In this document: piece after piece, positions 32,142 to 50,287 of the stretch | Position numbering within the stretch: position 1 is the first letter of the stretch | Layout: each line of letters begins with the position of its first letter | Assembly (NCBI GenBank): GCA_035548815.1 | Contig: DASZSF010000005.1 | Span: 115,741-179,740 of the forward strand | From: Minisyncoccota bacterium | GTDB lineage: Bacteria > Patescibacteriota > Minisyncoccia > Phycocordibacterales > SBAW01 | DNA length: 64,000 bases | Direction: 5' to 3' | Made by a program: the position numbers and the translations under genes | The notes under the pieces: generated by a model | What the model saw: only the letters and a program-made list of their open reading frames with translations | Told to the model about the DNA's origin: nothing | The model's database searches: none

Positions 32142-32229
32142 GGAGGCGTCGCATAGTGGTCTAGTGCACACGCTTGGAAAGCGTGCAACCCGCAAGGGTT
32201 CGAGAGTTCGAATCTCTCCGCCTCCGCCA
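32142..32229 (+). tRNA. tRNA-Ser(GGA): tRNA-Ser (anticodon GGA), type II with long variable arm, CCA encoded
   Basis: acceptor GGAGGCG/CGCCTCC, anticodon arm CACGC-TTGGAAA-GCGTG, variable arm AACCC-GCAA-GGGTT, T-arm GAGAG-TTCGAAT-CTCTC, G73, CCA. Confidence 0.88.
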
Positions 32230-32292
32230 GAAGGTTTTAGTATCGGAGGTATGCGAGAGCATACCTCTTTAGAGTACTGCGAAGGCTTACCA

Positions 32293-32322
32293 TTGAACTT
32301 CTAATGTCTTCCACACTATAAT
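32293..32322 (+). promoter_or_regulatory. sigma70-like promoter for DUF4238 gene (leaderless-type spacing)
   Basis: -35 TTGAAC (32293-98), 18-bp spacer, -10 TATAAT (32317-22) 6 nt before GTG start at 32329. Confidence 0.4.
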
Positions 32323-32328
32323 CACGGC

Positions 32329-33297
32329 GTGGCTAAGAAGAATAAAAAGAAAAACAAAGGGCCGCGCGACCAGCATTTTGTCCCGCGTTGTTATCTATCT
32401 GAATTCACCGATCCCAACACCCCTTTAGGCCAAGAGCCTTACGTGTGGGTGTTCGACAAGGACGGCAAGAATCCGCGTAAGCGGGCTCCTAAAAACGTAT
32501 TTACCGAGACCCATTTATATACCTTCGAGTTCAATGGTGAAAAGGATTTCTCCATGGAACAAAGTCTCTCTACTATCGAGGCCAAGTACGCATATATCTT
32601 TAGGCATAAAATCAAACAAAAGAAGCCTCTGACCGAAACGGAACACGCCTACCTATGTGCGTTCGTCGCGGCTCAGATGGTCCGTACGCCGCGCTTTAAG
32701 GAGAACCAAGAGAACTTCATCCAGCAGCTCATCGACCATGGCACTCAGATGGCGCTCGCGCACGGCGTAACCAATTCGCCGCAGGTGCGCCAGTGGCGGG
32801 AGTACAAAAAGGACGCACACAAGATCCAAATGGTGGATAGCATCCCGTACATCGCGAACATACTGCTGCAAATGAGCGTGGCATTTCTCTGCATCAAAGG
32901 TCCGAGCAAACACTGGTTCATTACTTCGGACGACCCTTGCGTATTTTTCAATCCGGATCTTCAATGGCAGCGGTTTTATGGCCCCGGCTTCGGTCAACAA
33001 AACGTGCAGCTCACACTCGCACTCAGTCCGGAGGTAACAGTGATGTTTACGTGGGCGAACTTTCGCGGCTACTCGTATGTGAGCGGCGGCAACGTCGAGA
33101 GTATGCTCAACCGTATGACACGCTTTCACTCAAACAAAGAATTTATATCTCCATACCCCAAGAAAAAGTGGGTCTGGTTTAGTCGCGTGCCGCTCGACCC
33201 GTTCTTCCTCTGGAAGGTAGTGAAGAATGAGACGAAAATACGGCTTCACAAGCTCCGCAACCGATGGCGCTACCGCAAAATGTATGCCAAACGATAA
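32329..33297 (+). CDS. DUF4238-family protein (Rst_DUF4238-type anti-phage defence candidate), GTG start
   Basis: N-terminal HFVPRCYLSEF matches DUF4238 signature; Lys-rich N-tail. Confidence 0.7.
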   Translation: MAKKNKKKNKGPRDQHFVPRCYLSEFTDPNTPLGQEPYVWVFDKDGKNPRKRAPKNVFTETHLYTFEFNGEKDFSMEQSLSTIEAKYAYIFRHKIKQKKPLTETEHAYLCAFVAAQMVRTPRFKENQENFIQQLIDHGTQMALAHGVTNSPQVRQWREYKKDAHKIQMVDSIPYIANILLQMSVAFLCIKGPSKHWFITSDDPCVFFNPDLQWQRFYGPGFGQQNVQLTLALSPEVTVMFTWANFRGYSYVSGGNVESMLNRMTRFHSNKEFISPYPKKKWVWFSRVPLDPFFLWKVVKNETKIRLHKLRNRWRYRKMYAKR

Positions 33298-34171
33298 CAT
33301 CGAACAAAATATAAAAGATATTGTCGAGTCTGGCGCGACCCCAGATGAGAAGATCTCCTCGCTTAACGACCTGATTGCGGGACTCAGCTTTGTGCATCAG
33401 GTCGCAGAAGCTCGACGTGTCGCGGAAGCAGGTGCGCTTATTGCTGCAAAGGCTGGTAAGACGGAAATGGCAGCACAATTTTGCTTTATGCGTGCAAAGG
33501 CGGAGATTGCAGAAGCAGGCAAATTCATCGGCGAGATGAAAAACATTACTATGGCGATCAACTGGTTCGAGTTCGGGCTTGAGGCAGAGAAAAAACGATT
33601 TAAAGAACTTGATGCAAAACTGCAAACCAACTGGGGCATCACTCAAAAGGTTATGAATATGGGGTATGATTTTATCAATAAAAAACCCTACATTGGCGCT
33701 GGTGCTTATTGCCAGCGAACCGCCGGACAGATATATGGCACTTATTACCTCCAGCTAAAGCTACACTATTTCACAACCGGTCATCCGTGGCGCGCGCGTT
33801 TCGGGAATTATGCGCTGTCTCGTTGGGTCGGCATAGATGACTTGTTCATTCTCAGTAAGAAATCTCGCGCTCACCTGCGAAGTGTTAAACGAGACTGTCT
33901 CAAGTCTCTCCATCAAGCAAAGCGTCTGTTTAAACAAATAAAAGCATATGATTACCTTGTTGAGACATACTTTGACCTCGCGCTGGAACACCATTCATTC
34001 AATGACTCTCTCCGCAGTAAGTTTTATCTCTGGTGGGGATGGTTGTTAATGAAATGGCACCGACTTCAGGAGCCACGCCTCGCAGAAAGCTTCGCGTCAC
34101 TTCGCGAATTGCCACTCATCGGAAGCAATCGTGACGGCAGACCTATGGATGAGCTGCAACCGCAGCTGTAA
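33284..34171 (+). CDS. hypothetical alpha-helical protein translationally coupled to DUF4238 gene
   Basis: ATG 33284 overlaps upstream stop by 14 nt; 295 aa, no recognisable domain. Confidence 0.5.
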   Translation: MPNDNIEQNIKDIVESGATPDEKISSLNDLIAGLSFVHQVAEARRVAEAGALIAAKAGKTEMAAQFCFMRAKAEIAEAGKFIGEMKNITMAINWFEFGLEAEKKRFKELDAKLQTNWGITQKVMNMGYDFINKKPYIGAGAYCQRTAGQIYGTYYLQLKLHYFTTGHPWRARFGNYALSRWVGIDDLFILSKKSRAHLRSVKRDCLKSLHQAKRLFKQIKAYDYLVETYFDLALEHHSFNDSLRSKFYLWWGWLLMKWHRLQEPRLAESFASLRELPLIGSNRDGRPMDELQPQL

Positions 34172-34175
34172 TCTT

Positions 34176-35543
34176 CTAATTGTCTTGGTCTATCGTCACA
34201 ATTCCTTTTGTGATTTTGAGCTTTGATTTGAAACATCCCATCAACTCGCGCTTCTCCTGGTCCGTCCCTTCCTTCAGCGTGTACTTCGCATAGGTTTTGA
34301 GATCTACTTCGTCGTGCGTTTTTGAGGCGCTGGACATACCCAACACTGCTCGTTGGAATTTGTTAAAGCGCTTTAGCTCTTCCTCAAACTTGTGCTGAAT
34401 GCCGATGCCATTGAGGTCGATTTGGTCGAGTGCTTTTATCATCTGGTCGATTAGTTCCTCCTCGCGCAGGTAGGTATTCTTGCAGTGCAGATTACGCGCT
34501 CGCCCGCAGCCGTAATAGATATACTTTCGCATCGTACCGTCTTTGAGCTGTTTGTACTTTTCCTCCGCGCTGAACATTGATCCGCACAGTCCGCAGGTGA
34601 CGAGCTTGGTAAACGCGAACTCGTGGCTTTGGCGCACAATGCTATCGCGCTTGAGTTGGGCCTGCACCGCATCAAAGAGTTCTTTGGTGATGAGCGGCTC
34701 GTGCTTGCCCTGATACCAATTGCCGGAGTTTTTCGGGTACTCGAACGTGCCGTAATAGAAATGATTGGTGAGCGTGCGATATACGTTGCCGCAGGTAAGC
34801 GGCTTGTTGCCGGTTGTATGAAAGTTTAAGTCGAACCTAAGCCAGTGGTAGACGCGACGGCCCGACCACTTTTCGTAAGCAACCTTCTCAAACATTTTCT
34901 TGATAACTGGTCCTCGCTCCGGATCGACAATCACCTGACATTTTTTGTCCATCATTTTTTGTGTCAGATATCCAGTGGGCGGCGTAGTTGGCCACAAGCC
35001 CATTTCGACCCTCGTTCGCAAACCGCGCTTAACATTGATTCCACGATTATCGTTTTCGAGCTTCGCTTGTGACCCGAGAATCATCAACAGGAACTTCTCG
35101 TTCGGGTTATTGCGGAAGCTCTGGCTGTATGTCCGAATTTCCTGCAAGCCTCCGGAGTCCATCAAATCCACGACCTTGCCGAGGTCGCCTGCGTTGCGCG
35201 AAATTCTATCAGCTGCCCATGTCAAAATTCCGTTGTATTTGCCAGCTTTGATCTCCTCGATAACTTCATTGAAGACTGGTCGCTGACCCGTCTCTTTTGC
35301 AGAGTGCGATTCGCGCTTCATCGCGACCACCTCTAGGCCTTCTCGCTCGGAGAGCTGTAGCATTTCCTTTATCTGCGAATCAATCGAAAGCACCTGTCGC
35401 TCTTCCGATTCGGTGCTCTTTCTCGCATAGAGGCAATACCTCACTTTTACCGCCTCTGGTACGACCTGTTTGCCAATAATACCCACGGCCCTTGTTGTAG
35501 TTTCCATACCCCAAGGGATGACGCTGACGCCTATGGGAGTCAA
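34176..35543 (-). CDS. large serine recombinase (resolvase/integrase family with recombinase domain and zinc ribbon)
   Basis: catalytic region YARKSTESEERQVLSIDSQ, ...RISRN; C-terminal CGLCGS...YYGCGRARNLHC. Confidence 0.85.
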   Translation of the reverse strand: MTPIGVSVIPWGMETTTRAVGIIGKQVVPEAVKVRYCLYARKSTESEERQVLSIDSQIKEMLQLSEREGLEVVAMKRESHSAKETGQRPVFNEVIEEIKAGKYNGILTWAADRISRNAGDLGKVVDLMDSGGLQEIRTYSQSFRNNPNEKFLLMILGSQAKLENDNRGINVKRGLRTRVEMGLWPTTPPTGYLTQKMMDKKCQVIVDPERGPVIKKMFEKVAYEKWSGRRVYHWLRFDLNFHTTGNKPLTCGNVYRTLTNHFYYGTFEYPKNSGNWYQGKHEPLITKELFDAVQAQLKRDSIVRQSHEFAFTKLVTCGLCGSMFSAEEKYKQLKDGTMRKYIYYGCGRARNLHCKNTYLREEELIDQMIKALDQIDLNGIGIQHKFEEELKRFNKFQRAVLGMSSASKTHDEVDLKTYAKYTLKEGTDQEKRELMGCFKSKLKITKGIVTIDQDN

Positions 35544-35595
35544 GAGCGTCCCCAGAACCTAGCTGTTGGTAACTTAAACAAGCTGGAGCCTATAT

Positions 35596-36123
35596 TTAAA
35601 GATTCTTCAATATAAAATCTGCCCGCTCTTCCGGCGGCAGTACAGGCACGTGTACAACCGGTGATGGCAGTGATTCATAAACTTCAGTAATGAAGTCGTG
35701 GATTTGCTTCTGTGCGGCCGCGTCTTCGGTGCGGGCGTAGTCATTCACTAGCGGCAATGGATCTAAAATGAAAACCTTTTTATATGATGCCTTCCTCATC
35801 GCCAACAGGATTTTGCCGTCTTCGGGGAGATTAGTAAATCGATAATATGCTAAAGCGTCAGGGATTGCCCGATCAAGAAAAACGACTTCGTTCGGTGAAA
35901 GTTCCCGCTCTTGTGCGATCTGCATACCAAGCACACCTTGCTGAAAAGCCAGCTGGTTTTGCCTAATCTCTTCTACAGTTTTACCCGTGATTCGTTGTGT
36001 ATCAATAAAATGCCGTGCATGCTCAATCGTGGTCTTGTAGCCACGTTCTTTGAGAAGGTTTACCGTAGTTGTCTTACCGGAGCCCGGGCCTCCAGTTATT
36101 ACGTACCAGTTCGTTGCGTCCAT
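35596..36123 (-). CDS. P-loop NTPase / predicted kinase (AAA_28/NadR-like)
   Basis: Walker A ITGGPGSGKTT, Walker B VVFLD. Confidence 0.55.
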   Translation of the reverse strand: MDATNWYVITGGPGSGKTTTVNLLKERGYKTTIEHARHFIDTQRITGKTVEEIRQNQLAFQQGVLGMQIAQERELSPNEVVFLDRAIPDALAYYRFTNLPEDGKILLAMRKASYKKVFILDPLPLVNDYARTEDAAAQKQIHDFITEVYESLPSPVVHVPVLPPEERADFILKNL

Positions 36124-36392
36124 TAGCCGATTTTATGTGATCCACTCCAGTTATAGCAATGCGCGAAGCAATATCCCAATACAAAACCAAAAATGACACT
36201 GGCAATAATGCCTTCAACCCACGCCTGTACTGAACCAAGAGGGGCGGCCGTGAACAGAGCGAGCCACATATGTGTGAACTGTGCCCCAGGCAAAATAATC
36301 TGTGCAATGGCACATAGTACGAACGCGACAACCAAGGTGCCAGCGAGTGCGATACCAGTCCGAACCGTCGACAATCGAGTAATGTTTTCCAT
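36123..36392 (-). CDS. small 2-TM membrane protein
   Basis: 89 aa hydrophobic; start overlaps kinase. Confidence 0.4.
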   Translation of the reverse strand: MENITRLSTVRTGIALAGTLVVAFVLCAIAQIILPGAQFTHMWLALFTAAPLGSVQAWVEGIIASVIFGFVLGYCFAHCYNWSGSHKIG

Positions 36393-36424
36393 AAAATTTA
36401 TTAATTTCTAAATAATGTCGGCAA

Positions 36425-36641: not shown

Positions 36642-36650
36642 CATAAGGTC

Positions 36651-36923
36651 ATGAAAGTAGACGCGAAAAGAAAGGTACTCCGTCGCCTCAGTCTAATCCG
36701 GGGCCAACTCAACGGCCTTATCAAAATGGTAGATGCTGAACGCTACTGCGTCGACATCATTACGCAATCGAGCGCGATTAAGGAGGCACTTTCAGGAGTG
36801 GAAGACGTCATGCTCGAAAACCATCTCACGACGCACGTTATAGACCAGATCAAATCAGGGAGGAGTAAGAAGGCGGTCGAAGAGATATTGAAAGTTTATA
36901 AGTTAGCACAAAAGAAAAAGTGA
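36651..36923 (+). CDS. csoR: copper-sensing repressor CsoR (CsoR/RcnR DUF156 family)
   Basis: VLRRLSLIRGQLNGLIKMVDAERYCVDIITQSSAIKEAL...HLTTH; conserved Cys and His ligands. Confidence 0.85.
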   Translation: MKVDAKRKVLRRLSLIRGQLNGLIKMVDAERYCVDIITQSSAIKEALSGVEDVMLENHLTTHVIDQIKSGRSKKAVEEILKVYKLAQKKK

Positions 36924-36924
36924 T

Positions 36925-37131
36925 ATGAAAAATACCACCGTGCGTTGGGTAATTATTGGTCTACTTATAGTCGCAGGAGTTTATCTCGCTGTTGACCACG
37001 GTCAGCATATTGCGCCCTATTTGCCATTTGCTTTTTTGTCAGGCTGCCTTTTTATGCACCTGTTCGGCCACGGAGCACATGGTCATCATGGGAACCATGG
37101 CGGGCATGAGCATGAAGACGCAAAACAATGA
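36925..37131 (+). CDS. DUF2933-like small membrane protein with His-rich tail (metal-resistance associated)
   Basis: TM then CLFMHLFGHGAHGHHGNHGGHEHED. Confidence 0.5.
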   Translation: MKNTTVRWVIIGLLIVAGVYLAVDHGQHIAPYLPFAFLSGCLFMHLFGHGAHGHHGNHGGHEHEDAKQ

Positions 37132-37967
37132 AAAATATTTTAATCACCAAAGCATCTGGCGAACGTGAGGCATTTTCGGAGTCGAAATTGCGCCGCTCTC
37201 TACAGCGCGTGCACGCACCTTCAAATCTTGTAGACGAAATCGTCGCCCAGATCGAGACTGAATTGAGCGAAGGTATGAATACGTCGGAGATATATCGGAA
37301 AGCGTTTTCTCTGCTCAGGAAAAAAGCGAGACCTGTCGCGGCACGCTACAGTCTTAGAAGCGCACTAATGGAATTGGGACCGACCGGCAGGCCATTCGAG
37401 CGCTTTGTGGGTGAGCTTTTGAAGTCGGAGGGATTTGCCGTAGAAGTAGCGAAGATTGTGCCAGGAGTCTGCATCAAGCATGAAGTTGATGTCGTCGGCA
37501 CCAAAGGAGATCGACATATTATGGTGGAATGCAAATTTCATAATCAACCCGGATTGCGATCGGACGTAAAAATATCGCTCTATGTACAGGCTCGATTTGA
37601 GGATATCGAGCGCCAATGGAAGAAACAACTGCATCACGGAGAGAAATTCCACGAAGTATGGCTTGTCACTAATACGAAACTTACTTCTGATGCCACTGAT
37701 TATGCGAAATGCGTCGGGATGCATGCTATTGGCTGGAATTATCCTGCCACTGGCAGCTTGGAAGAGCTAATTGAGCAGCATAATCTCCATCCTTTGACAT
37801 GTCTAACGCGTCTGAATCGTTTACAGAAACAAGAACTTTTAAAACAAGGGCTCATTCTTTGCACTGATCTCCTAGAGGAACGAGACACTTTGCAGAAAAT
37901 TGTTGGAACTTCCGTGCGTGTAGATGAAATAGTGCAAGAGGTAAAGAAGCTACTAAAAATCGTATGA
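37128..37967 (+). CDS. ATP-cone domain fused to Mrr-like (restriction endonuclease-fold) nuclease domain
   Basis: N-terminal KASGEREAFSESKLRRSLQRV (ATP-cone); central ERFVGELLKSEGFAVEVAKIVPG...HEVDVVGTKGDRHIMVECKFH (Mrr_cat D-x-E-x-K). Confidence 0.65.
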   Translation: MKNILITKASGEREAFSESKLRRSLQRVHAPSNLVDEIVAQIETELSEGMNTSEIYRKAFSLLRKKARPVAARYSLRSALMELGPTGRPFERFVGELLKSEGFAVEVAKIVPGVCIKHEVDVVGTKGDRHIMVECKFHNQPGLRSDVKISLYVQARFEDIERQWKKQLHHGEKFHEVWLVTNTKLTSDATDYAKCVGMHAIGWNYPATGSLEELIEQHNLHPLTCLTRLNRLQKQELLKQGLILCTDLLEERDTLQKIVGTSVRVDEIVQEVKKLLKIV

Positions 37968-38215
37968 AAGAATTAGAACGCCGATCCTTCAATAATTTCA
38001 TGCAGGCGGGGCTCGTTGGATTTACGATGCTCGGCTTCTTACTTACGTCGCTTAAGATGCCCCAATATGGCGTCGTTGCGAATTTAATCTCAGAAGTCTT
38101 CTGGCTATACAGCACGTACAAGGCGTGGAAAGAAGCAAATCAGGTTGGCATGTTTATAAACACCCTGATTGTGACGGCAATCCTCATTTTTGGAGTTATC
38201 AACTATTGGCTCTAG
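37964..38215 (+). CDS. small 2-TM membrane protein
   Basis: 83 aa, overlaps neighbours by 4 nt. Confidence 0.4.
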   Translation: MKELERRSFNNFMQAGLVGFTMLGFLLTSLKMPQYGVVANLISEVFWLYSTYKAWKEANQVGMFINTLIVTAILIFGVINYWL

Positions 38216-38226
38216 CAATATAAATT

Positions 38227-40428
38227 ATGAATCACGACGACCACAAAAATCACAAACACAGAGCCCATGGCATGGAGCAATACACCTGCCCGATGCATCC
38301 TGAAGTAATAAAACATGAGCCGGGCAAATGTCCGGGATGCGGCAAGGATTTGATTCCCAAGGAAAAGGGGGTAGGCGGTGAACATGCCGGGCACGATATG
38401 TCGAAAATGAGCCACATGGATCACGAGGCAGCGATGACGAACCCACAGATGGCGAAGGCAATGGAGGCCGATATGCGCCGCCGGTTCTGGATTTCATTCG
38501 TACTCTCGATACCCATTTTCTTGTATTCGCCCGTCGGCGTGAACCTGTTGAAGCTCCATCTGCCCGCGCCGATACCGGTCAGCTGGATACTCTTCATCCT
38601 CACGACACCGATAGTTTTCTGGACCGGCTCCATATTCATCACGGGCACGTACTACTCGCTCAAAGCCAAGAAGCTCAACATGGCGGTCTTGATCGCGACA
38701 GGCGTCCTTGCCGCGTACCTCTTTAGCGTGCTTCTCACGCTGATACAGCCTGCGAGCGAGACGTTCTACGAAGCCGCCGCGCTTCTTGTCACCTTCGTTC
38801 TTTTTGGGCATTGGATGGAGATGAAATCCCGCAAAGGCACATCGGACTCGCTCCGAGCCCTCTTTGATCTGGTACCGCCTCAGGCCCGAGTCATCCGCGA
38901 CGGAAAAGAGATGAGCATACCGAGCGCGGAAATAATCAAGGGGGACGTCGTCGTGTTGCGTCCTGGCGACAAAGTGCCGGTTGACGGAGAAATCATTGAG
39001 GGTGATTCATCGATCGATGAATCACTTGTGACCGGCGAATCCATCCCTGTCTCGAAGGCGAAAGGAGACAAAATAGTGGGAGGTTCGGTCAACCTCACCG
39101 GCGCGGTGCAATTCAAGGCGACAAAAGTCGGCGCGGATACTGTCTTGGCACAGATCATCAAGATGGTAGAGACTGCACAGAACTCCAAAGCGCCCGGGCA
39201 GCGTATCGCCGACAAGGCTGCCGCCATTCTGGTGGTGGTCGCCATTGGCTCCGGACTTGCCGCATTCTTTGGCTGGTATTTCTTCGGAGGTGCGGGACTT
39301 CTCGCCGCCCTTACCTTTGCCGTATCGACTGTTGTCATTGCATGCCCTGATGCATTAGGGCTCGCGACGCCAACAGCCGTTGCGGTGGGCACCGGCTTGG
39401 GTGCCAAGCACAACATTCTCATCAAAGATGCCGCAACGCTTGAAAATACTTCCAAACTCAATGCTATCGTGCTTGATAAGACAGGTACGCTCACCGAAGG
39501 GAAACCGAAAGTAACCGAGGTTGTTTCCACAAATTCTTATACCAAAGAGGACGTGCTTGCATACGCGTCTGCCGTTGAGCGGAACTCGAATCATCCCATT
39601 AGTCTCGCGATTATCAACGAAGCATCGAAGCGTAGCGTGTCCATCGAGAAGAAAGTCGAGAAATTTGAATCAATCGGCGGTCATGGCGTGCGTGCTGTTG
39701 CCGATGGCAAGACGGTCATTGCGGGCACTGAGCGCTTGATGAAGCAAAGCACTATTGATCTCTCACCACTCAAAAAGGAAATCGACCGTCTGCTTGGCAC
39801 AGGCAACACCATCAGCATCGTCGCGATTGACGGCAAGGTGGCGGGTGCCATCGGCGTCGCAGACACGGTACGTGAATCCGCACAGAAAACAGTATCCAAA
39901 CTAAAAGATATGGGTTTGGAAGTCGTCATGATCACTGGCGATCACGAACAGGTCGCTAAGGCAGTTGCAGGACAGCTTGGGATTGAACGCTACTTCGCAC
40001 AAGTGCTTCCTGAGGAGAAAGCGAAGTACGTGAAGAAGTTGCAAGACGAAGGTAAAAACGTAGCAATGGTCGGTGACGGCATCAACGATGCACCTGCCTT
40101 GGCGCAATCCGATATCGGCATCGCGATTGGTGCAGGCACCGACGTCGCCATCGAGACCGGCAACATCGTCCTGATGAAGTCCGATCCTTACGACATCGTG
40201 GCCGCCATCCGATTGTCTAAAGCAACTGTCACGAAGATGAAACAGAATCTATTTTGGGCTGCTATCTACAATGTTCTCGCAATTCCCGTGGCCGCAGGAG
40301 TTTTCTACTCAAGCTTGGGTTGGTCATTGCGACCTGAAATTTCCGCACTCCTCATGTCCGCTTCCTCAATCATCGTTGCTACAAACGCGGTTCTGCTCAA
40401 ACGGGTGGAGCCGCGCTTGAAGGAATGA
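38227..40428 (+). CDS. copA: heavy-metal (probably copper) P1B-type ATPase; TM6 motif CPD instead of CPC; N-terminal TRASH/YHS-like CPMHP...CPGCG
   Basis: TGES, IACPDALGLATP, DKTGTLT, GDGINDAPAL, 8 TM. Confidence 0.9.
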   Translation: MNHDDHKNHKHRAHGMEQYTCPMHPEVIKHEPGKCPGCGKDLIPKEKGVGGEHAGHDMSKMSHMDHEAAMTNPQMAKAMEADMRRRFWISFVLSIPIFLYSPVGVNLLKLHLPAPIPVSWILFILTTPIVFWTGSIFITGTYYSLKAKKLNMAVLIATGVLAAYLFSVLLTLIQPASETFYEAAALLVTFVLFGHWMEMKSRKGTSDSLRALFDLVPPQARVIRDGKEMSIPSAEIIKGDVVVLRPGDKVPVDGEIIEGDSSIDESLVTGESIPVSKAKGDKIVGGSVNLTGAVQFKATKVGADTVLAQIIKMVETAQNSKAPGQRIADKAAAILVVVAIGSGLAAFFGWYFFGGAGLLAALTFAVSTVVIACPDALGLATPTAVAVGTGLGAKHNILIKDAATLENTSKLNAIVLDKTGTLTEGKPKVTEVVSTNSYTKEDVLAYASAVERNSNHPISLAIINEASKRSVSIEKKVEKFESIGGHGVRAVADGKTVIAGTERLMKQSTIDLSPLKKEIDRLLGTGNTISIVAIDGKVAGAIGVADTVRESAQKTVSKLKDMGLEVVMITGDHEQVAKAVAGQLGIERYFAQVLPEEKAKYVKKLQDEGKNVAMVGDGINDAPALAQSDIGIAIGAGTDVAIETGNIVLMKSDPYDIVAAIRLSKATVTKMKQNLFWAAIYNVLAIPVAAGVFYSSLGWSLRPEISALLMSASSIIVATNAVLLKRVEPRLKE

Positions 40429-40488
40429 GTCGTACCCGGTCGAGGTACGATGAAGGTAGAGATTAAAAAAAAATAAACCAATCAACAT

Positions 40489-40707
40489 ATGAAATTCTCA
40501 AAATTAATGCATGTAGCCAGCGTTGTAGTGGGGTTTGCAGGCGTGTTCGTGTTCATCGTTACCGTTGTCGGGGGCGATGCTAACATCTTCGGTATTACAA
40601 AAATGGACGCACTCGCTTGTGCCGCCATTCTTATACTCATCGCAACTTGGACTCAGATCGCGACTATCCATCACATGATGCTTGAACGCAAAGGTGAACT
40701 TATCTAG
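40489..40707 (+). CDS. small membrane protein
   Basis: 72 aa, 2 TM. Confidence 0.35.
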   Translation: MKFSKLMHVASVVVGFAGVFVFIVTVVGGDANIFGITKMDALACAAILILIATWTQIATIHHMMLERKGELI

Positions 40708-40709
40708 CC

Positions 40710-41354
40710 ATGTGCTTCTCGGCCACAGCAAGCTTCGTAGCAGGTGGAACGTTGTCGGCAGCAGGGGCTCTTACTCTTACTCAAGCGAAAACTAAGAAAG
40801 AGCTCCCATTCGCCGCAATACCGCTCTTGTTTGGCGTGCAACAGACTATCGAAGGATTCGTGTGGCTCTCATTCGGCTCTGCATTCTGGAATGTCGCACT
40901 GACATACGCGTACTCGATGTTCTCGCACGTATTGTGGCCGATATTCGTTCCCATTTCAGTTTTGCTACTAGAGACAGACCCAACCCGAAAGAAGATCCTG
41001 CGATCCTTTTCGGTTATTGGTGCGGCGGTGGGACTATACCTTCTATACTTCATCATCGTTGATCCGGTGACGGCGCATGTCGTTAACCACAGCATCGCGT
41101 ATCACTCGCCGCACTTTTATGCTCTTCCGACAATGTTTCTTTATTTGATCGCGACATGTGGTAGCTGTCTTGCGTCGAGCCATAAAATCATCAAAGTGTT
41201 CGGGGTCGTGCTTCTTACTTCGTTCGCTATCGCCGCGTGGTTCTACACCGAAACATTCTTCTCGGTTTGGTGTTTCTTCGCAGCAATTCTTAGCGTTATC
41301 GTCTGCTGGTATTTCAGGAATAAAAATATGCAAAAATCTCACGTTTCGGTATAA
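40710..41354 (+). CDS. hypothetical 6-TM membrane protein
   Basis: 214 aa hydrophobic. Confidence 0.45.
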   Translation: MCFSATASFVAGGTLSAAGALTLTQAKTKKELPFAAIPLLFGVQQTIEGFVWLSFGSAFWNVALTYAYSMFSHVLWPIFVPISVLLLETDPTRKKILRSFSVIGAAVGLYLLYFIIVDPVTAHVVNHSIAYHSPHFYALPTMFLYLIATCGSCLASSHKIIKVFGVVLLTSFAIAAWFYTETFFSVWCFFAAILSVIVCWYFRNKNMQKSHVSV

Positions 41355-41361
41355 TCGATCT

Positions 41362-41772
41362 ATGCGAAGTTTTTACCCGTATCTAAAGATATTCATTGCG
41401 ACCGCGCTCCTCGCATTTCTTCTCTTTGGCTCTGCGGGAGCGATGCATTTTGGCATGAATATGGGAGCAGATGGCAAGATGGCTCCTTGCCCGTTCTCTG
41501 GCGAAGGGGCGATTTGCACCATGAATCCGCTTGAGCACATCGCCGCATGGCAGAATGCATTTACCACGACAGTCCAAAACGAGCGCGATATTGCTTTTCT
41601 CCTCATCGCCCTCACACTCCTTTTCACCGTCGGCTTTTGGCGAGAGCTTTTTACAAAACGAGACTTACGCTCGTTGCAGAAGTGGCATAGCGTCCTGCGC
41701 GAGGAGTTCAGTATCTTCGACCCGCTCCAAGAAGCGTTTTCAAACGGCATCCTAAATCCAAAAGTATTTTAG
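41362..41772 (+). CDS. hypothetical small membrane/exported protein with CPFSGEGAIC motif
   Basis: ATG 41362 in-frame within ORF 41158..41772. Confidence 0.4.
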   Translation: MRSFYPYLKIFIATALLAFLLFGSAGAMHFGMNMGADGKMAPCPFSGEGAICTMNPLEHIAAWQNAFTTTVQNERDIAFLLIALTLLFTVGFWRELFTKRDLRSLQKWHSVLREEFSIFDPLQEAFSNGILNPKVF

Positions 41773-41812
41773 GTAGGCACTCCTCGCCGCGTCATTCGTC
41801 GCGGATTATTCG

Positions 41813-42547
41813 GTGCTATCTAATCTACTCATGGAAACAACACAAGAATCTAAAAGTATCGTATCGACTCCTGTCGCTATTATCATCGCAGGAGTCATCA
41901 TCGCTGGCGCGGTCATCTTCGCGACAAAGCAACCCGCCGCTCAACCGGCCGCGGCTAACGCTCAACCGCAAGCCCCAGTCGCCGTCGATGTAAGTAAAGT
42001 TAAAACCGACAGCGAGCCGTTCATCGGCAACGCCAATGCGCCCGTAACCATGGCCTACTGGTACGATTACCAATGCCCATTCTGCCAGCGCAACGAAGAG
42101 GATACGATGCCGCAGATCGTTAAAAATTATGTCGATACCGGCAAGCTCAAGGTCGTGTTCAAGGATTACGAATTTCTTGGCCCCGACTCGCAAACGCTCG
42201 GACAGTTTTCCCGCGCCGTATGGGCCGTCGCTCCCGACAAATTCTATCAATGGCACAAAGCCATCTACGACAACCAGGGTACCGAGAATACCGGCTGGGC
42301 GACGCAGAACAAGATTCTCTCGATTACTACTAGTGTGCTTGGTGCCGGCGACACAGCAAAAGTGGCTGCGTTCGTGAAGAGCAATGGAGCCGAGTATCAG
42401 AAAGCAATGGATGCGGATAAAGCTGAAGGCACGGCCATGGGCATCAGCGGCACTCCCGGCGCAATCATCGGCAAGCAGTTAATCTCCGGAGCGCAGCCAT
42501 ACGCGGCATTCCAAGCGGCGATAGATGCGGCTCTGAAAAACCAGTAG
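41813..42547 (+). CDS. DsbA-family thiol:disulfide oxidoreductase (thioredoxin fold)
   Basis: N-terminal TM; CPFC active site in YDYQCPFCQRNEE. Confidence 0.75.
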   Translation: MLSNLLMETTQESKSIVSTPVAIIIAGVIIAGAVIFATKQPAAQPAAANAQPQAPVAVDVSKVKTDSEPFIGNANAPVTMAYWYDYQCPFCQRNEEDTMPQIVKNYVDTGKLKVVFKDYEFLGPDSQTLGQFSRAVWAVAPDKFYQWHKAIYDNQGTENTGWATQNKILSITTSVLGAGDTAKVAAFVKSNGAEYQKAMDADKAEGTAMGISGTPGAIIGKQLISGAQPYAAFQAAIDAALKNQ

Positions 42548-42551
42548 ACCT

Positions 42552-43214
42552 ATGCGTACTCAATATGTTCCTGTCCTCATCATCGCTCTCGCGGTGCTCG
42601 TAGGCGGATATCTTATCGCAAGATCGCATACGCCGGTCGCCAATGCGGAAGTTGCCGCAGAGTATGCAAAGATCCCGACAGCGAGCGGCAAAGCGCTCTT
42701 CATGGCGCAGAGCAAAAATCTGACAGAGAGTGTCGACCCAACCATTGTCGATCTCGATTCCCAGCTCATCACCTGCGCTCCGAATGTTGATAGCTTGCTC
42801 TCAACAAATCCTTCAATCGGCGGCAGTTGTGTTGCGGACGGCATGAATCTTGCTTCGACCACTGGTATGTATTTAGGCGGTCAGTGCTGCGGTCCCATGA
42901 AAGACCTTACGGAGTACAACGAAGAATTAAAAAATCTACAGCAGTACAAAGACATTCCCGACGTGCCGATGAATCCGTACAAGACATCGATTGGGATTGC
43001 GAAGAAATGGATCGACTACGACAACGCCACCATGCTCACACCGCAAGAACAAGTGGTCATGGATCAGGCGATGAAAACGTCGAAAGAAGGTCCGTGCTGC
43101 TGCAAGTGTTGGCACTACTTCGTCAATGAGGGCATCGCAAAAAAAATGATCAAAGATTACCACTACAGTGCGCAGCAAATCGCCGCGTATTGGGATACGT
43201 CGAGTATCTGTTAA
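42552..43214 (+). CDS. hypothetical secreted Cys-rich protein
   Basis: GGQCCGPMKD, EGPCCCKCWHY motifs; in copper cluster. Confidence 0.45.
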   Translation: MRTQYVPVLIIALAVLVGGYLIARSHTPVANAEVAAEYAKIPTASGKALFMAQSKNLTESVDPTIVDLDSQLITCAPNVDSLLSTNPSIGGSCVADGMNLASTTGMYLGGQCCGPMKDLTEYNEELKNLQQYKDIPDVPMNPYKTSIGIAKKWIDYDNATMLTPQEQVVMDQAMKTSKEGPCCCKCWHYFVNEGIAKKMIKDYHYSAQQIAAYWDTSSIC

Positions 43215-43226
43215 CTAAATAACATT

Positions 43227-43682
43227 ATGAAAACAATCATTATTACTACCGCAGCCGCGGTACTGCTTCTTGTTGGCGGCACGTTGTGGTCGAAGAGTAT
43301 CTCAAACAGCGACCCTAATGTCGTCGCCTCAGGCGGCATACATTGGCACCCGCAGCTCACGATCTATATCAAGGGCGTGAAGCAAGATATTCCAGCGAAC
43401 CTCGGCATCGGTCCGCAATTCGCGGGCACCAACGGTTACGATCCGCAAATGCAGATGGCGGCTGTACACACCCACGAGGATCTTCCGCTCATTCATCTCG
43501 AATTCATGAGCGGTCCCGTACGCAAAGAAGATGTCACGCTCGGCCAATTCTTCAAGATATGGGGCAAGGACATGCATTCACTTGGTACGAACATGCGCAT
43601 GATGGTCAACGGTAAAGCGAACACCGATTACGAGAATTACGTCATGCATGATGGAGATAAGATAGAATTGAATTATGACTAA
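43227..43682 (+). CDS. hypothetical membrane-anchored protein (His-containing, possible metal binding)
   Basis: IHWHP, HTHED; no family recognised. Confidence 0.4.
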   Translation: MKTIIITTAAAVLLLVGGTLWSKSISNSDPNVVASGGIHWHPQLTIYIKGVKQDIPANLGIGPQFAGTNGYDPQMQMAAVHTHEDLPLIHLEFMSGPVRKEDVTLGQFFKIWGKDMHSLGTNMRMMVNGKANTDYENYVMHDGDKIELNYD

Positions 43683-45255
43683 GAAATATCTCTACATTGC
43701 CATAATTGCTGTGGTAGTCATTGCCGGCATCGTTCTCTACCAAAAATCTCCGCTTGCCGTATCAGCGTATGTCAGTACCGATGTCGTCGGACTGTCGGAG
43801 GTAAAAGCGCCCGAGACTGTTGAGCTAAAGAATGGCGATACCTACACACTCACAGCAAGTTATGTCTCAAAAAACATCAACGGCATGAACTACCGAATGC
43901 TTGCGTACAATGGATCGATTCCTGGGCCTGTAATCAAAGTTCCGCAAGGAGCACGGGTAACCATCAACTTCAAGAACGATACCGACATGCCGACCCTGCT
44001 CCACTCGCACGGCGTGCGGATGGATAATCAATTTGACGGCTCGCAGACATCGCAAGACCCGATACCGCCGGGCGGCTCGTTCGCGTACACGCTCAAATTC
44101 CCAGACGCTGGTATGTACTGGTACCACCCGCATGTGCGCGAGGACCTTGAGCAGGAACTTGGTCTCTACGGCAACTTTCTGGTCGTGCCAACCGATGGCA
44201 ATTATTGGGACCCTGTAAATCAGGAGGTGCCGCTTACGCTCGATGACATTCTCATCCAGAACGGCAAGATTGATTTGAGCAAACAAGCAGCTGACCACAC
44301 GCTCATGGGCCGCTACGGCAATGTCATGCTCGTGAATGGGCAGACAGATTACTCACTTTCAGCAAAGAAAGGAGAAATCGTCCGCTTCTACATCACTAAC
44401 GTGGCAAACGCTCGGCCGTTCAACTTTGCGATTGAGAGCGCGAAACTCAAGCTGGTCGGTTCTGACGGCGGTGCGTATGAGCAAGACCAATGGAAGGACT
44501 CGGTAGTCATTGGGCCCTCGGAGCGCGCCATCGTCGAAGTCCTTTTTGACAAAAGCGGCACGTTCGCCATCGAAAACAAAACACCGGACCAAACCTATAC
44601 AATTGGCTCCGTAGCGGTGTCTAATGAGTCAGCGTCCGTCTCGTACGCAAAGGAGTTCTCCGTGCTCAAAACGCATACTGCAACAGTAACGAGCATCGAC
44701 CCTCTACGTTCCTACTTCGACAAAGCGCCTGACAAGAAAATTGCCATCTCAATCACCATGAACGGAGCACCCGCACAAATGCAGATGAGTATGGGAGGAG
44801 GCCACATGATGCCGGACGGCACCATGATGGGTGGCTCGATGATGAGCACGAGCCCCGATGGTATCGAATGGAACGACACAAACATGATGTCTGGTGGCAT
44901 GTCTACAACTGATAACGTGAAGTGGACAATCACCGATCAGGATACGGGGAAGGTGAACAGCGATATCAAGTGGACGTTCAAAAAGAATCAACCGGTGAAG
45001 ATTGAAATATACAATGACCCGCATTCAATGCACCCGATGCAGCATCCCATTCACTTCCACGGCCAGCAGTTCTTGGTACTCTCAGTCAACGGAGTAAAAC
45101 AAACAGACTTGGTGTGGAAAGACACCGTGCTCGTGCCGTCTGGTCAAACGGTCGACATTCTTCTATATCCGACAAATCCGGGCACATGGATGGCACACTG
45201 CCACATCGCCGAGCATTTGGAGGACGGGATGATGTTCACGTATACGGTGGAATAG
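43675..45255 (+). CDS. multicopper oxidase (CueO/laccase-like) with Met-rich insert
   Basis: Cu sites HSHG, HPHV, HPIHFHG, HCHIAEHLEDGMM; Met-rich MQMSMGGGHMMPDGTMMGGSMMS. Confidence 0.9.
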   Translation: MTKKYLYIAIIAVVVIAGIVLYQKSPLAVSAYVSTDVVGLSEVKAPETVELKNGDTYTLTASYVSKNINGMNYRMLAYNGSIPGPVIKVPQGARVTINFKNDTDMPTLLHSHGVRMDNQFDGSQTSQDPIPPGGSFAYTLKFPDAGMYWYHPHVREDLEQELGLYGNFLVVPTDGNYWDPVNQEVPLTLDDILIQNGKIDLSKQAADHTLMGRYGNVMLVNGQTDYSLSAKKGEIVRFYITNVANARPFNFAIESAKLKLVGSDGGAYEQDQWKDSVVIGPSERAIVEVLFDKSGTFAIENKTPDQTYTIGSVAVSNESASVSYAKEFSVLKTHTATVTSIDPLRSYFDKAPDKKIAISITMNGAPAQMQMSMGGGHMMPDGTMMGGSMMSTSPDGIEWNDTNMMSGGMSTTDNVKWTITDQDTGKVNSDIKWTFKKNQPVKIEIYNDPHSMHPMQHPIHFHGQQFLVLSVNGVKQTDLVWKDTVLVPSGQTVDILLYPTNPGTWMAHCHIAEHLEDGMMFTYTVE

Positions 45256-45580
45256 TCCTCCTATCCCACCTCAAGACCCTTAAGAGCCTCCTTGTTGGCA
45301 AACCCCCTTCGCAAATCCCTGGGGTCTGCTAGGGTGCAAAGCGATAGCATAAAGTGCTATCATGTTCGTGCACAACTAAATATAAGCCGACCTAACCCCT
45401 CAGGCCTCAAAACCTCAGGATATGGTCGCAAATCCCGCTAGAGATCAAAGGACTCCTGGTCAGAGTCACTCTAGCGGGTCGTATCGGGAAACCGGTACGG
45501 GCTCGGCCGAAAGGTCGGGTCGCGATGGCCAGGAGCCTTTTGATTAGGGCTCACTCCGTCGATAAAACCCGCTAGAATTC

Positions 45581-48231: not shown

Positions 48232-48649
48232 GGTTATTTTCTTTATCGTTAGTAACGCTGGTAATCTCCACTGTCTCGCTTTCAAGCATCGCGAGCCCGC
48301 GTTCTACGAGCGCATCCTGCTCAGCGTCCAACGCCTCACGCTCTTCTGGGGTACGCGCGGTGATCTCGAGTTTGTCTTTGAACTTCGGGTTGCGGTGCCG
48401 CAGCCAGAATTGGATCGATGGATAATGGCGCTCCAACATGAGGGAATACAGTTGATTCTCGCCGAGGTCGTTCAGCATCGCCTCGCCCTCGGCGAGCGCG
48501 TCTTCCATTGCTTTGCGGAATTCCTCGTCTTCATCGCGCCACTTGTACACGGTCGAGCGTGCGACGCCAACTTGCTCGACGGCGGCCTGAATATTCGGGA
48601 TCTTTTTCAGATGTTCGAGAAACAAGTCTTTGATGCGATCTTTTTTCAT
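48146..48649 (-). CDS. putative terminase small subunit / HTH DNA-binding protein
   Basis: MKKDRIKDLFLEHLKKIPNIQAAVEQVGVARSTVYKWRDEDEEF HTH; immediately upstream of large terminase, 3' overlap. Confidence 0.5.
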   Translation of the reverse strand: MKKDRIKDLFLEHLKKIPNIQAAVEQVGVARSTVYKWRDEDEEFRKAMEDALAEGEAMLNDLGENQLYSLMLERHYPSIQFWLRHRNPKFKDKLEITARTPEEREALDAEQDALVERGLAMLESETVEITSVTNDKENNHEKDSAKGSDGVGANQNEQEAASGGGAA

Positions 48650-50008: not shown

Positions 50009-50287
50009 TTAATTCAATACGTACGAGGGAAGCTCGTATGCGTACATCTCGTATCGCTCGCGCACGCCAGCCTTCCTCAGCAGGTCCTTTATGCGGTTTT
50101 TCAGGATAGCGCGAACGTAGGTTTTGAGGGACGCCCCATTCTTTCCCTTGAAGTTGATCTTGCGGGTGAGAAGAGTGAGGGCAAGTTCGTCTTTGATGTC
50201 GTCCGCGGTCATCTCCGGAATCCACGTATGTTTCGCGATTCGGTCGATCAGAGGGAGAAATTCAAGACACAGTTCGTTATTCGACAT
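50009..50287 (-). CDS. small sigma-factor-like / phage transcriptional regulator (hypothetical)
   Basis: 92 aa, helical, weak sigma region-4-like. Confidence 0.35.
   Translation of the reverse strand: MSNNELCLEFLPLIDRIAKHTWIPEMTADDIKDELALTLLTRKINFKGKNGASLKTYVRAILKNRIKDLLRKAGVRERYEMYAYELPSYVLN

What the first reader, a model, noticed from the sequence alone, without database searches (positions are those of the whole stretch)
32142..36400. Integrative island at tRNA-Ser carrying a DUF4238 defence module and a large serine recombinase
A complete type-II tRNA-Ser(GGA) is followed within 100 nt by a promoter (TTGAAC-18-TATAAT) and a leaderless-spaced GTG-start DUF4238 gene. A large serine recombinase with a zinc ribbon is then encoded on the opposite strand, with a P-loop kinase beyond it. 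A tRNA, defence cargo and site-specific recombinase in this order is the classic layout of a small genomic island or satellite. DUF4238 is the signature domain of the single-gene Rst_DUF4238 anti-phage system catalogued from P4-like hotspots. Finding it in a small-genome monoderm (possibly CPR) would be unusual.
Basis: partly seen in the sequence, partly recalled or inferred. Interest (0 to 1): 0.7.

Follow-up and report, generated by a model that had tools for sequence, protein, structure and literature searches.

The report
Serine-recombinase element at tRNA-Ser carrying defence cargo
The flagged 4 kb is the tRNA-side end of a roughly 19.5-kb mobile element in a Patescibacteria genome, from a large uncharacterised family whose serine recombinase inserts right after tRNA-Ser genes and carries swappable cargo, here a two-gene DUF4238 module (probably anti-phage) and a copper-resistance cluster.

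Summary
In detail: tRNA-Ser(GGA), a DUF4238 gene, a convergent large serine recombinase (LSR) and an AAA_28 P-loop gene are all present.

- **Size.** Distant relatives keep tRNA-Ser(GGA) 1-6.5 kb from DUF192; here the gap is 20.8 kb. The element probably runs from 32230 to about 51686, not 4 kb.
- **Family.** The LSR has at least 555 metagenomic relatives. In 41 of 80 untrimmed loci the first downstream feature is a tRNA, always on the opposite strand, and 40 of 41 are tRNA-Ser. A conserved end motif sits in fixed register with the tRNA 3' end.
- **Backbone.** About 40% of members share ParB-methylase, TerS, TerL, then LSR, without recurrent capsid or portal genes, and often with the orphan LOOT RNA.
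- **Cargo.** The slots mostly hold restriction-modification and other defence genes, or CsoR-CopA copper resistance.
- **DUF4238.** The pair is 90% identical in DNA to a copy beside an LSR only 67% identical.

A defence role is inferred, not shown. DUF4238 is common in this phylum.

The parts
32142..32229 (+). tRNA-Ser(GGA), the host target gene; its 3' end forms the B arm of the attachment junction
   Evidence: ARAGORN; Rfam tRNA 55.9 bits. The same tRNA lies downstream of GroEL in relatives that lack the element.
32225..32262 (+). Element end, an attL-like junction: the last 5 nt of the tRNA plus the conserved P'-arm motif (TTTAGTATCGGAGG...)
   Evidence: A PWM built from 34 distinct junctions scores 22.1 bits here, and nothing else in the window exceeds 10 bits on either strand. 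The motif is in fixed register with the tRNA 3' end in 35 of 41 metagenome junctions and is absent from 8 empty sites.
32293..32322 (+). Promoter-like site of the DUF4238 cassette (TTGAAC-18-TATAAT)
   Evidence: Consensus scan, 10/12. The stretch from 32244 onwards is conserved at 73% DNA identity with the cassette leader in L123. Function not shown.
32329..33297 (+). DUF4238 protein (322 aa), the first gene of the two-gene cargo cassette; presumed effector
33284..34171 (+). ORF295, an obligate partner of this DUF4238 clade; TPR/14-3-3-like helical repeat protein, presumed sensor or adaptor
34176..35543 (-). Large serine recombinase, the integrase of the element
   Evidence: Resolvase + Recombinase + Zn_ribbon_recom; phrog_95 integrase 4.5e-63. 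At least 555 metagenomic relatives, 40 of 41 tRNA-linked ones next to tRNA-Ser.
35596..36392 (-). AAA_28 P-loop NTPase (35596-36123) and DUF5676 2-TM protein (36123-36392); cargo specific to this element
   Evidence: Pfam. No homologue in any of the 115 family loci.
36651..45255 (+). Copper-resistance cargo block: CsoR, DUF2933, ATP-cone/Mrr-like protein, CopA P-type ATPase, DUF6629, DsbA-like protein, multicopper oxidase and small ORFs
   Evidence: Pfam and precomputed Pfam. CsoR-CopA(-MCO) lies next to related LSRs in L123, L132, L145, L158, L189, L190, L191 and L193.
45389..45521 (+). LOOT RNA (Rfam RF03000), antisense to the backbone, 60 nt upstream of p311
   Evidence: 73.3 bits against a gathering score of 46.4. 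Above gathering score in 9 of 33 viral loci and L123, and found by a family HMM in 13 of 80 metagenome loci, 13 of 13 on the strand opposite the LSR.
45581..46516 (+). p311, unknown function
   Evidence: phrog_26645 9e-23, function unknown. Weak homologue downstream of LOOT in L197.
46513..48285 (-). Terminase large subunit
   Evidence: phrog_38 8e-71; Terminase_6C weak. 38-48% identical homologues lie directly upstream of related LSRs.
48146..48820 (-). Terminase small subunit. The true start is probably near 48650, because homologues align from about residue 55.
   Evidence: phrog_4044 5e-12. Homologous to the gene between the MTase and TerL in 25 loci.
48646..49917 (-). ParB-like N6/N4 DNA methyltransferase, the first gene of the backbone packaging module
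   Evidence: N6_N4_Mtase 2.9e-25; phrog_498 5e-79 plus ParB phrogs; present in 34 family loci.
50009..50287 (-). p92, a small sigma-70 region-2-like protein upstream of the packaging module; a possible regulator
   Evidence: Sigma70_r2 8.5e-6. No homologue in other loci.
51687..51714 (+). Relic of an older cassette or element end (CCGGAGG...GAGTACTGTCGAAGGCTT); probable outer limit of the present element
   Evidence: 17/18 match to 32272-32288 plus the adjacent CGGAGG, and 'CACCGGAGG' shared with the L123 cassette leader. Zero such hits in 5.6 Mb of other loci. It lies in p195, an ORFan with no homologue.

Best explanation
The flagged segment is the tRNA-proximal end of one integrated element of about 19.5 kb (32230 to about 51686) in a Patescibacteria chromosome.

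Mechanism:
1. The element's large serine recombinase recognises the 3' end of tRNA-Ser genes as one arm of attB, and recombines at or a few bases past the tRNA end. The tRNA stays intact and no long direct repeat is made. A conserved roughly 35-nt arm (...TTTAnTATCGG...) then abuts the tRNA.
2. The backbone on the minus strand is sigma-like p92, ParB-methylase, TerS, TerL, then LSR.
3. There are two cargo slots, TerL-to-LSR and LSR-to-tRNA, that turn over quickly. Here the first holds AAA_28, DUF5676, a copper-resistance cluster, LOOT RNA and p311. The second holds a self-promoted two-gene cassette, DUF4238 plus the TPR-like ORF295.
4. That cassette most likely acts as an anti-phage or anti-competitor module, with ORF295 as sensor or adaptor and DUF4238 as effector.
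5. Because the family carries a terminase but no recurrent capsid genes, it most likely spreads by packaging into a helper phage's capsids, like a satellite. A decayed-prophage origin is not excluded.

Shown: gene identities, tRNA-Ser linkage and orientation, the end motif, the conserved architecture, the nature of the cargo, the obligate DUF4238-partner pairing, and cassette exchange.

Inferred: the crossover position, the distal boundary, the defence function, and the mode of transfer.
For: - **Insertion.** Relatives have tRNA-Ser(GGA) followed by DUF192 at 1.1, 1.4, 3.7 and 6.5 kb, against 20.8 kb here, and none has an LSR in that interval.
- **tRNA targeting.** In 80 untrimmed metagenome loci (LSRs 64-93% identical), 41 have a tRNA as the first downstream feature. 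All 41 are on the opposite strand, 40 are tRNA-Ser, and only 2 of 80 loci have any tRNA upstream. Viral contigs show 12 further cases by ARAGORN, plus a truncated tRNA at the end of L024 by Rfam, all on the opposite strand. Among these viral contigs, LSRs only 42-53% identical sit at Gln, Asn, Trp or Glu tRNAs and have a different motif.
- **End motif.** TATCGG is in identical register with the tRNA end in 35 of 41 junctions. The window scores 22 bits. Eight empty sites lack the motif.
- **Basal state.** Eight loci have only 114-142 nt between the LSR stop and the tRNA, including L141, which shares SecG, SBP and RNase J synteny with the window. The cassette is therefore an insertion into that gap.
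- **Serial integration.** In L211 three same-orientation motifs are each preceded by 17-20 nt resembling a tRNA-Ser 3' end.
- **Backbone.** ParB-MTase, TerS, TerL, then LSR are co-directional in most viral loci and in 9 of 22 metagenome loci with at least 8 kb upstream.
- **Gene families.** Only four families recur widely across 115 loci: LSR 114, ParB-MTase 34, TerL 27, TerS 25. No portal or capsid family recurs.
- **Cargo.** Type I, III-like, ISP and IIG restriction-modification, an SNF2-PLD protein, a reverse transcriptase and a C5 methylase, and CsoR-CopA in 8 loci.
- **Cassette pairing.** The partner gene overlaps DUF4238 by 11-23 nt in every context examined, down to 47-49% DUF4238 identity (L213, L028).
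- **Cassette exchange.** 89.8% DNA identity to L121 over exactly 32328-34171, while the adjacent LSRs are 67% identical.
- **LSR decay.** Only a remnant of the LSR C-terminus follows the pair in L128/L130.
- **Defence-island context.** In L213 the pair sits with a Type ISP enzyme, a Shedu SduA_C protein, an Mrr nuclease and a LexA-like protein.
- **Precedent.** A DUF4238 protein gave strong T7 resistance in E. coli (PMC9122126).
Against: - No closely related genome with an empty site was found. The best GroEL match is 76% identical, so insertion is inferred from distant synteny only.
- The distal end rests on one 28-nt relic inside an ORFan, and no recognisable inverted P arm was found.
- The copper block could be a separate older insertion.
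- The PADLOC DUF4238 model matches only residues 169-256 at 37 bits. No phage-database homologue exists, and no fold neighbour hints at the biochemistry.
- No replication, excision-factor or regulator gene was identified in the window's element.
- Only +/-10 kb around each LSR was seen, so structural genes further away in some members cannot be excluded.
- Serial integration into an occupied site is not standard LSR behaviour.
Confidence: 0.7

Rival explanations
1. One reading: a small 4-kb island (tRNA-Ser, DUF4238, ORF295, LSR, perhaps AAA_28 and DUF5676). The copper cluster and the terminase/methylase genes would be older, unrelated insertions pushed outward.
For: Minimal islands of exactly this composition exist: L121 (about 4.7 kb) and L215-217, seen on 23 contigs. 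Tandem arrays of elements and relics are common at these sites.
Against: The gene order ParB-MTase, TerS, TerL, [reverse-strand cargo], LSR is the family norm, with TerL-to-LSR gaps of 0.1-9 kb. No internal end motif scores above 10 bits anywhere between 32263 and 64000. CsoR-CopA directly abuts related LSRs in 8 other loci. There is only one LSR in the window.
Confidence: 0.2
2. A decayed temperate prophage. The LSR and the ParB-MTase/TerS/TerL genes would be the surviving ends of a once-complete phage whose structural genes were replaced by cargo. The element would then be immobile and the genes domesticated.
For: TerL phrog_38 8e-71, plus TerS and a ParB-MTase typical of phage packaging modules. 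IMG/VR classifies 33 related contigs as viral. Decay is seen elsewhere, for example the LSR remnant in L128. No replication or lysis genes were found here.
Against: No portal, capsid or tail family recurs in 115 loci, whereas the four-gene backbone does, which suggests a maintained capsid-less design. The LSR is intact with its catalytic motif. The DUF4238 cassette was exchanged recently (90% against 67% DNA identity), so the system is active at the population level.
Confidence: 0.25
3. The DUF4238-ORF295 pair is not an anti-phage system. It could instead be an addiction or toxin-antitoxin-like module, or an accessory factor of the element such as a recombination-directionality or superinfection-exclusion function.
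For: Six of the seven distinct contexts examined are at tRNA-Ser/LSR sites, the window included, so the pair is tightly tied to this element family. The pair persists after LSR loss (L128, L211), as addiction modules do. The PADLOC match is weak.
Against: Only the window itself, L028 and L121 among the 115 LSR-family loci carry it, plus L215-217, which were fetched through the DUF4238 protein. It is therefore not needed for recombination. It occupies the same slots as restriction-modification and reverse-transcriptase systems, and in L213 it sits in a Shedu/Type ISP island without an LSR. A DUF4238 protein is experimentally anti-T7.
Confidence: 0.25

Closest known systems
Large serine recombinase integrases of temperate phages and islands (SPbeta SprA/YokA, A118/LI, TP901-1, Bxb1, phiC31, CcrAB)
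   Same: Same three-domain architecture and YxRxS catalytic motif. SprA/YokA is the closest solved relative, E=3e-10 over residues 39-381. The gene lies at the element end next to the attachment site. There are no long direct repeats at the junctions.
   Different: Known LSRs insert into protein-coding genes or specific intergenic sites. [quoted passage not shown] This clade is linked to tRNA-Ser 3' ends in 40 of 41 tRNA-linked loci. Sequence identity to characterised LSRs is low.
Rst_DUF4238 / PADLOC 'DUF4238-Pers' single-gene anti-phage system (Rousset et al. 2022)
   Same: Contains the PF14022 domain. It sits in a variable cargo hotspot of an integrated element. The validated protein blocks T7.
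   Different: Here it is an obligate two-gene operon with a TPR-like partner. The defence HMM matches only residues 169-256 at 37 bits. The host is Patescibacteria, and the hotspot belongs to an LSR element rather than a P2 prophage.
Phage satellites (PICI/SaPI, cf-PICI, P4, PLE) and virion-packaged integrative elements
   Same: Small integrative elements at fixed chromosomal sites, with an integrase at one end, packaging genes (TerS in SaPIs; TerS plus TerL in cf-PICIs), and defence cargo in hotspots, as in P4.
   Different: The integrase is a serine recombinase. TerS and TerL are present without the capsid, portal and connector genes of cf-PICIs. No primase/replicase or AlpA/Stl-type regulator was found. 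A ParB-methylase and LOOT RNA are part of the backbone. Packaging by a helper phage is an inference only.
Tycheposons of Prochlorococcus (Hackl et al.)
   Same: tRNA-proximal, cargo-carrying integrative elements whose integrase type correlates with the tRNA targeted. Some carry terS. A minority use a large serine recombinase. They accumulate in islands next to tRNAs.
   Different: 910 of 937 use tyrosine recombinases and leave partial tRNA copies, and many carry replication genes. None of that is seen here. The host phylum and hallmark genes differ.

Membership tests
Large serine recombinase (LSR) integrase | N-terminal resolvase catalytic domain with the catalytic serine, plus Recombinase and zinc-ribbon domains | tested here: met
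   PF00239 1.8e-18, PF07508 8e-14, PF13408 1.4e-8. YARKS aligns with YLRRS of SprA/YokA.
Large serine recombinase (LSR) integrase | Element junctions without long direct repeats (2-bp crossover), with the recombinase gene next to one junction | tested here: met
   No repeat of the tRNA or its flank at the other end, in the window or in L121. The LSR lies 114-142 nt from the tRNA in basal loci.
Large serine recombinase (LSR) integrase | Demonstrated attP x attB recombination | not testable with these tools
   Needs an assay, or reads spanning excision junctions.
Classical tRNA-gene genomic island (Islander definition) | Tyrosine-recombinase integrase | tested here: not met
   The only recombinase present is of the serine family.
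Classical tRNA-gene genomic island (Islander definition) | A displaced tRNA 3' fragment as a direct repeat at the far end | tested here: not met
   No tRNA fragment of 12 nt or more in direct orientation in the window. Only 17-20-nt tRNA-like arms are seen before internal motifs in L211.
Rst_DUF4238 / DUF4238-Pers defence system | Protein with the PF14022 (DUF4238) domain | tested here: met
   E=9e-34, 117.6 bits.
Rst_DUF4238 / DUF4238-Pers defence system | Full-length match to the defence-system HMM | tested here: inconclusive
   PADLOC PDLC03000 at 6.2e-10 and 37 bits; best stretch is residues 169-256 of 322. The DefenseFinder model was not available.
Rst_DUF4238 / DUF4238-Pers defence system | Single-gene system | tested here: not met
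   Conserved overlapping partner gene in every context examined.
Rst_DUF4238 / DUF4238-Pers defence system | Protection against phage | not testable with these tools
   Experimental. Only guilt by association is available.
Intact tailed prophage | Portal, major capsid, tail and lysis genes | tested here: not met
   None found between 32230 and 53047. No such family recurs in 115 loci.
Phage satellite (PICI / cf-PICI type) | Integrase plus packaging gene(s) in an element too small to encode a virion | tested here: met
   LSR, TerS and TerL in an element of about 19.5 kb without structural genes.
Phage satellite (PICI / cf-PICI type) | Own replication module (primase/replicase) and a helper-responsive regulator | tested here: not met
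   No such domains in the window's element. Some relatives carry a LexA/S24-like repressor beside the LSR.
Phage satellite (PICI / cf-PICI type) | Helper-dependent induction and encapsidation | not testable with these tools
   Needs virome or induction data.
LOOT RNA (Rfam RF03000) | Score above the Rfam gathering threshold across the full model | tested here: met
   73.3 bits against 46.4, model positions 1-121 of 121.

The most novel reading that the evidence does not exclude
A large, undescribed family of Patescibacteria mobile elements uses a serine integrase clade that specifically reads the 3' end of tRNA-Ser genes, with sister clades reading other tRNAs. It builds outward-growing arrays of cargo next to those tRNAs, and moves as a capsid-less satellite carrying its own terminase, a ParB-methylase and the orphan LOOT RNA. 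Within it, DUF4238 works only together with a TPR-like sensor partner as a new two-component anti-phage system.
Probability: 0.4. Interest if true: 0.8.

Novelty: new variant of a known kind. Interest (0 to 1): 0.62.

Why it matters
- **tRNA-specific serine integrases.** tRNA genes are the textbook target of tyrosine integrases. A widespread clade of serine integrases with tRNA-Ser specificity would add a new class of programmable, directional integrases with a conserved and easily predicted attB.
- **Genome plasticity in CPR.** It would show how the tiny genomes of CPR/Patescibacteria, thought to be poor in mobile elements, acquire defence and metal-resistance genes.
- **LOOT RNA.** It gives a genomic home and a testable context to the orphan LOOT RNA.
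- **DUF4238.** It indicates that the poorly understood DUF4238 defence protein has a partner-dependent form, which offers a handle on its mechanism.

Tried and rejected
1. **Strain-level empty site.** Exact-protein look-ups found only the source MAG (GCA_964570245.1) and 100%-identical Logan contigs from SRR12170511. Their break inside the tRNA is explained by tRNA conservation in the assembly graph.
2. **Reference-genome scan with the 170-aa neighbour of the tRNA.** No relatives found.
3. **attL/attR direct repeats.** None found by repeat finder or short-word BLAST, in the window or in L121.
4. **Inverted copy of the end motif as the distal P arm.** Nothing above background with a 6-sequence or a 34-sequence PWM.
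5. **'T-arm-like' fragments inside elements as displaced tRNA ends.** They are palindromic hairpins in only 4 of 41 loci, so this was rejected.
6. **TerL-centred scan of viral contigs.** No hits, because the exact peptide patterns were too specific.
7. **DUF4238 in viral contigs and cultured-phage records.** Nothing found. The LSR has only distant matches (27-28% identity) in two unannotated phage records.
8. **Sequence search of both cassette proteins against the PDB.** Nothing significant.
10. **LOOT as a leader of one gene family.** Rejected, because the downstream genes are heterogeneous.
11. **Published description of LOOT.** Not in the held text or supplements.
12. **p195 as a conserved gene that would contradict the relic.** It is an ORFan.
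13. **Base composition.** It gives no clear island signal (46-53% GC against about 51% for the window).

Full report
**Observation.**
- tRNA-Ser(GGA) lies at 32142-32229.
- A TTGAAC-18-TATAAT site lies at 32293-32322 and ends 6 nt before a GTG.
- The GTG opens a 322-aa DUF4238 protein (PF14022, E=9e-34).
- A convergent 455-aa large serine recombinase (LSR) has Resolvase, Recombinase and zinc-ribbon domains.
- An AAA_28 P-loop gene follows.
- The window comes from a 283-kb contig of MAG GCA_964570245.1.

**Host and insertion.** GroEL places the host among Patescibacteria/Paceibacteria; the best match is 76% identical. Relatives keep the order SBP, GroES, GroEL, a few genes, tRNA-Ser(GGA). In four of them DUF192 follows the tRNA at 1.1, 1.4, 3.7 and 6.5 kb. 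In the window the distance is 20.8 kb. None of the relatives has an LSR or DUF4238 in that interval. The relatives are distant, so this supports insertion of about 18-20 kb but does not prove a single event. No same-species empty site was found.

**A tRNA-Ser-linked LSR family.**
- The LSR has 33 relatives in IMG/VR contigs and at least 555 in JGI metagenome contigs.
- In the 80 best untrimmed loci (64-93% identity), 41 have a tRNA as the first feature downstream of the LSR. All 41 are on the opposite strand, and 40 are tRNA-Ser of five anticodons. Only 2 of 80 loci have any tRNA upstream.
- Eight loci show a basal state with 114-142 nt between the LSR stop and the tRNA. The rest have 0.8-6.2 kb in between.
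- Immediately 3' of the tRNA lies a conserved sequence, CGCCAnGACAATTTAnTATCGGnGT(G)A(C)CC. TATCGG is in identical register in 35 of 41 junctions. The window (32225-32262) scores 22 bits and nothing else in 64 kb exceeds 10 bits.
- Eight tRNA-Ser(GGA) sites in relatives lack the motif. One (L053) has a variant and is probably a decayed occupied site.
- In the viral contigs, LSRs only 42-53% identical sit next to tRNA-Gln, Asn, Trp or Glu, with a different shared motif. Recombinase type therefore tracks tRNA type.
- In L211, three same-orientation motifs follow three tRNA-Ser genes, and each internal motif is preceded by 17-20 nt resembling a tRNA-Ser 3' end.
- I read these tRNA-like stretches as the P arms of successive elements, which mimic the tRNA (B) arm. 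That implies serial integration at or just past the tRNA end, with older elements pushed outward and decaying. This is inference. The crossover dinucleotide is not determined.

**Architecture.**
- Window genes at 46513-49917 on the minus strand are TerL (phrog_38, 8e-71), TerS and a ParB-N6/N4 methylase.
- In the viral loci these genes lie co-directionally just upstream of the LSR, in the order ParB-MTase, (second MTase), TerS, TerL, LSR, tRNA. The TerL-to-LSR gap ranges from about 0.1 to 9 kb.
- 9 of 22 metagenome loci with at least 8 kb upstream also have the module.
- Across 115 loci only four families recur widely: LSR 114, ParB-MTase 34, TerL 27, TerS 25. No portal or capsid family was found.
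- The variable slots hold type I (HsdR/M/S), type III-like, Type ISP and type IIG restriction-modification, an SNF2-PLD protein, a reverse transcriptase and a C5 methylase. They also hold CsoR-CopA(-multicopper oxidase) in eight loci.
- The window follows this plan. On its minus strand the order is p92 (sigma-70 r2-like), ParB-MTase, TerS and TerL. An 11-kb slot follows, then the LSR, then a 1.9-kb slot, then the tRNA.
- The 11-kb slot holds p311, LOOT RNA, the copper cluster, DUF5676 and AAA_28.

**Distal end.** No inverted copy of the motif was found. At 51687-51714 there is CCGGAGG...GAGTACTGTCGAAGGCTT. It matches the cassette leader at 32245-32288, apart from a 22-nt hairpin, and it shares CACCGGAGG with the L123 cassette leader. 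The L123 leader is itself preceded by a tRNA-3'-like remnant. The 17-mer has no other hit (at most 1 edit) in the window or in 5.6 Mb of other loci. It lies in ORF p195, which has no homologue among 5.8 billion proteins. I take it as the relic of an older element end, so the present element spans about 32230-51686. This is the weakest link in the argument.

**The DUF4238 cassette.**
- ORF295 has 29 homologues and no Pfam domain; the few named ones are from Patescibacteria or Pacebacteria MAGs.
- Every DUF4238 context examined has a partner of 282-311 aa overlapping by 11-23 nt. The partners are 97% to 22% identical to ORF295.
- Six of seven distinct contexts, the window included, are tRNA-Ser/LSR sites:
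  - L121: tRNA-Ser(TGA), motif, pair, a 235-aa gene, LSR.
  - L215-217: tRNA-Ser, motif, pair, LSR, seen on 23 contigs.
  - L128/130: the pair followed by only an LSR remnant.
  - L211: an array of relics.
  - L123: inside an array next to a ParB-MTase, TerS, LSR, CsoR, CopA element.
  - The seventh context (L213) is a defence island with a Type ISP enzyme, Shedu SduA_C, an Mrr nuclease and a LexA-like protein.
- The window's cassette is 89.8% identical in DNA to L121 over exactly the two genes, while the neighbouring LSRs are 67% identical. The cassette was therefore exchanged recently.
- The PADLOC DUF4238 model matches weakly and partially.
- The only experimental anchor is that a single DUF4238 protein from the P2 hotspot protects E. 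coli from T7 (PMC9122126).

**Comparison with known systems.** The recombinase is a bona fide LSR; its closest solved relative is SPbeta SprA/YokA. [quoted passage not shown] Tycheposons are the nearest functional analogue, but they mostly use tyrosine recombinases. The terminase-bearing, capsid-less design resembles satellites. It lacks the replication and regulator genes that define PICIs, and the capsid genes that define cf-PICIs.

**Verdict.** The element is real, about five times larger than proposed, and a member of a large uncharacterised family. DUF4238 is one half of a two-gene cargo cassette whose defence role is plausible but unproven. DUF4238 is common, not unusual, in this phylum.

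Noticed in passing
window 45389-45521 (+); also L009, L011, L014, L017, L020, L021, L023, L025, L034, L123 and 13 of L131-L210: LOOT RNA (Rfam RF03000), an orphan metagenome-only motif, is a recurrent component of these LSR elements. It is above the gathering score in 9 of 33 viral loci and in L123, and is found by a family HMM in 13 of 80 metagenome loci. It is almost always antisense to the LSR, usually in the divergent gap between an LSR or ParB-MTase start and the first reverse-strand cargo gene. The downstream genes are heterogeneous.
   Followed up: partly
window 37128-37967 (+): A 279-aa protein with an ATP-cone, an Mrr_cat-type nuclease fold and an AF1548-like C-terminal domain sits inside the copper operon, between DUF2933 and CopA, with overlapping stop and start codons. 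This is an odd passenger for a metal-resistance cluster.
   Followed up: no
window 13733-14413 (+); L136, L137, L149, L192, L202, L204, L021, L213: The window's LexA-like repressor (LexA_DNA_bind + Peptidase_S24) has 25-38% identical paralogues encoded right beside the LSR in several family elements, and next to the DUF4238 pair in L213. This hints at SOS-responsive control in some members. The window's own element has none.
   Followed up: partly
window 11346-11705 (+); L016, L207, L178, L012: A 119-aa YgjP-like metallopeptidase fragment in the window is 56-59% identical to a gene that follows TerL in other LSR elements. It may be a relic of another mobile element at about 11 kb.
   Followed up: no
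L009/L010, L016, L027/L028, L157, L191, L207: Two or three LSR genes, or LSR fragments, of this family occur on one contig, sometimes each next to its own tRNA-Ser. In L157 a full LSR sits at tRNA-Ser(ACT) and an LSR fragment abuts tRNA-Ser(GGA). These look like tandem or neighbouring elements.
   Followed up: partly
window 51422-52009 (+): p195 is an ORFan whose only database match is itself. It has promoter-like and terminator-like flanks, and it contains the relic of the cassette leader. It may be a young or spurious ORF formed over element debris.
   Followed up: partly
window 53768-58828 (+): A 1686-aa Gly/Ser/Thr-rich repetitive protein with an N-terminal signal-like segment lies just beyond DUF192. 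It was not annotated.
   Followed up: no
L038 13706-13811 (+): A SAM riboswitch lies immediately on the host side of the tRNA-Gln next to a distantly related LSR element.
   Followed up: no
window 29353-29739 (+): GroES carries a roughly 35-residue lysine/alanine-rich N-terminal extension (128 aa in total).
   Followed up: no
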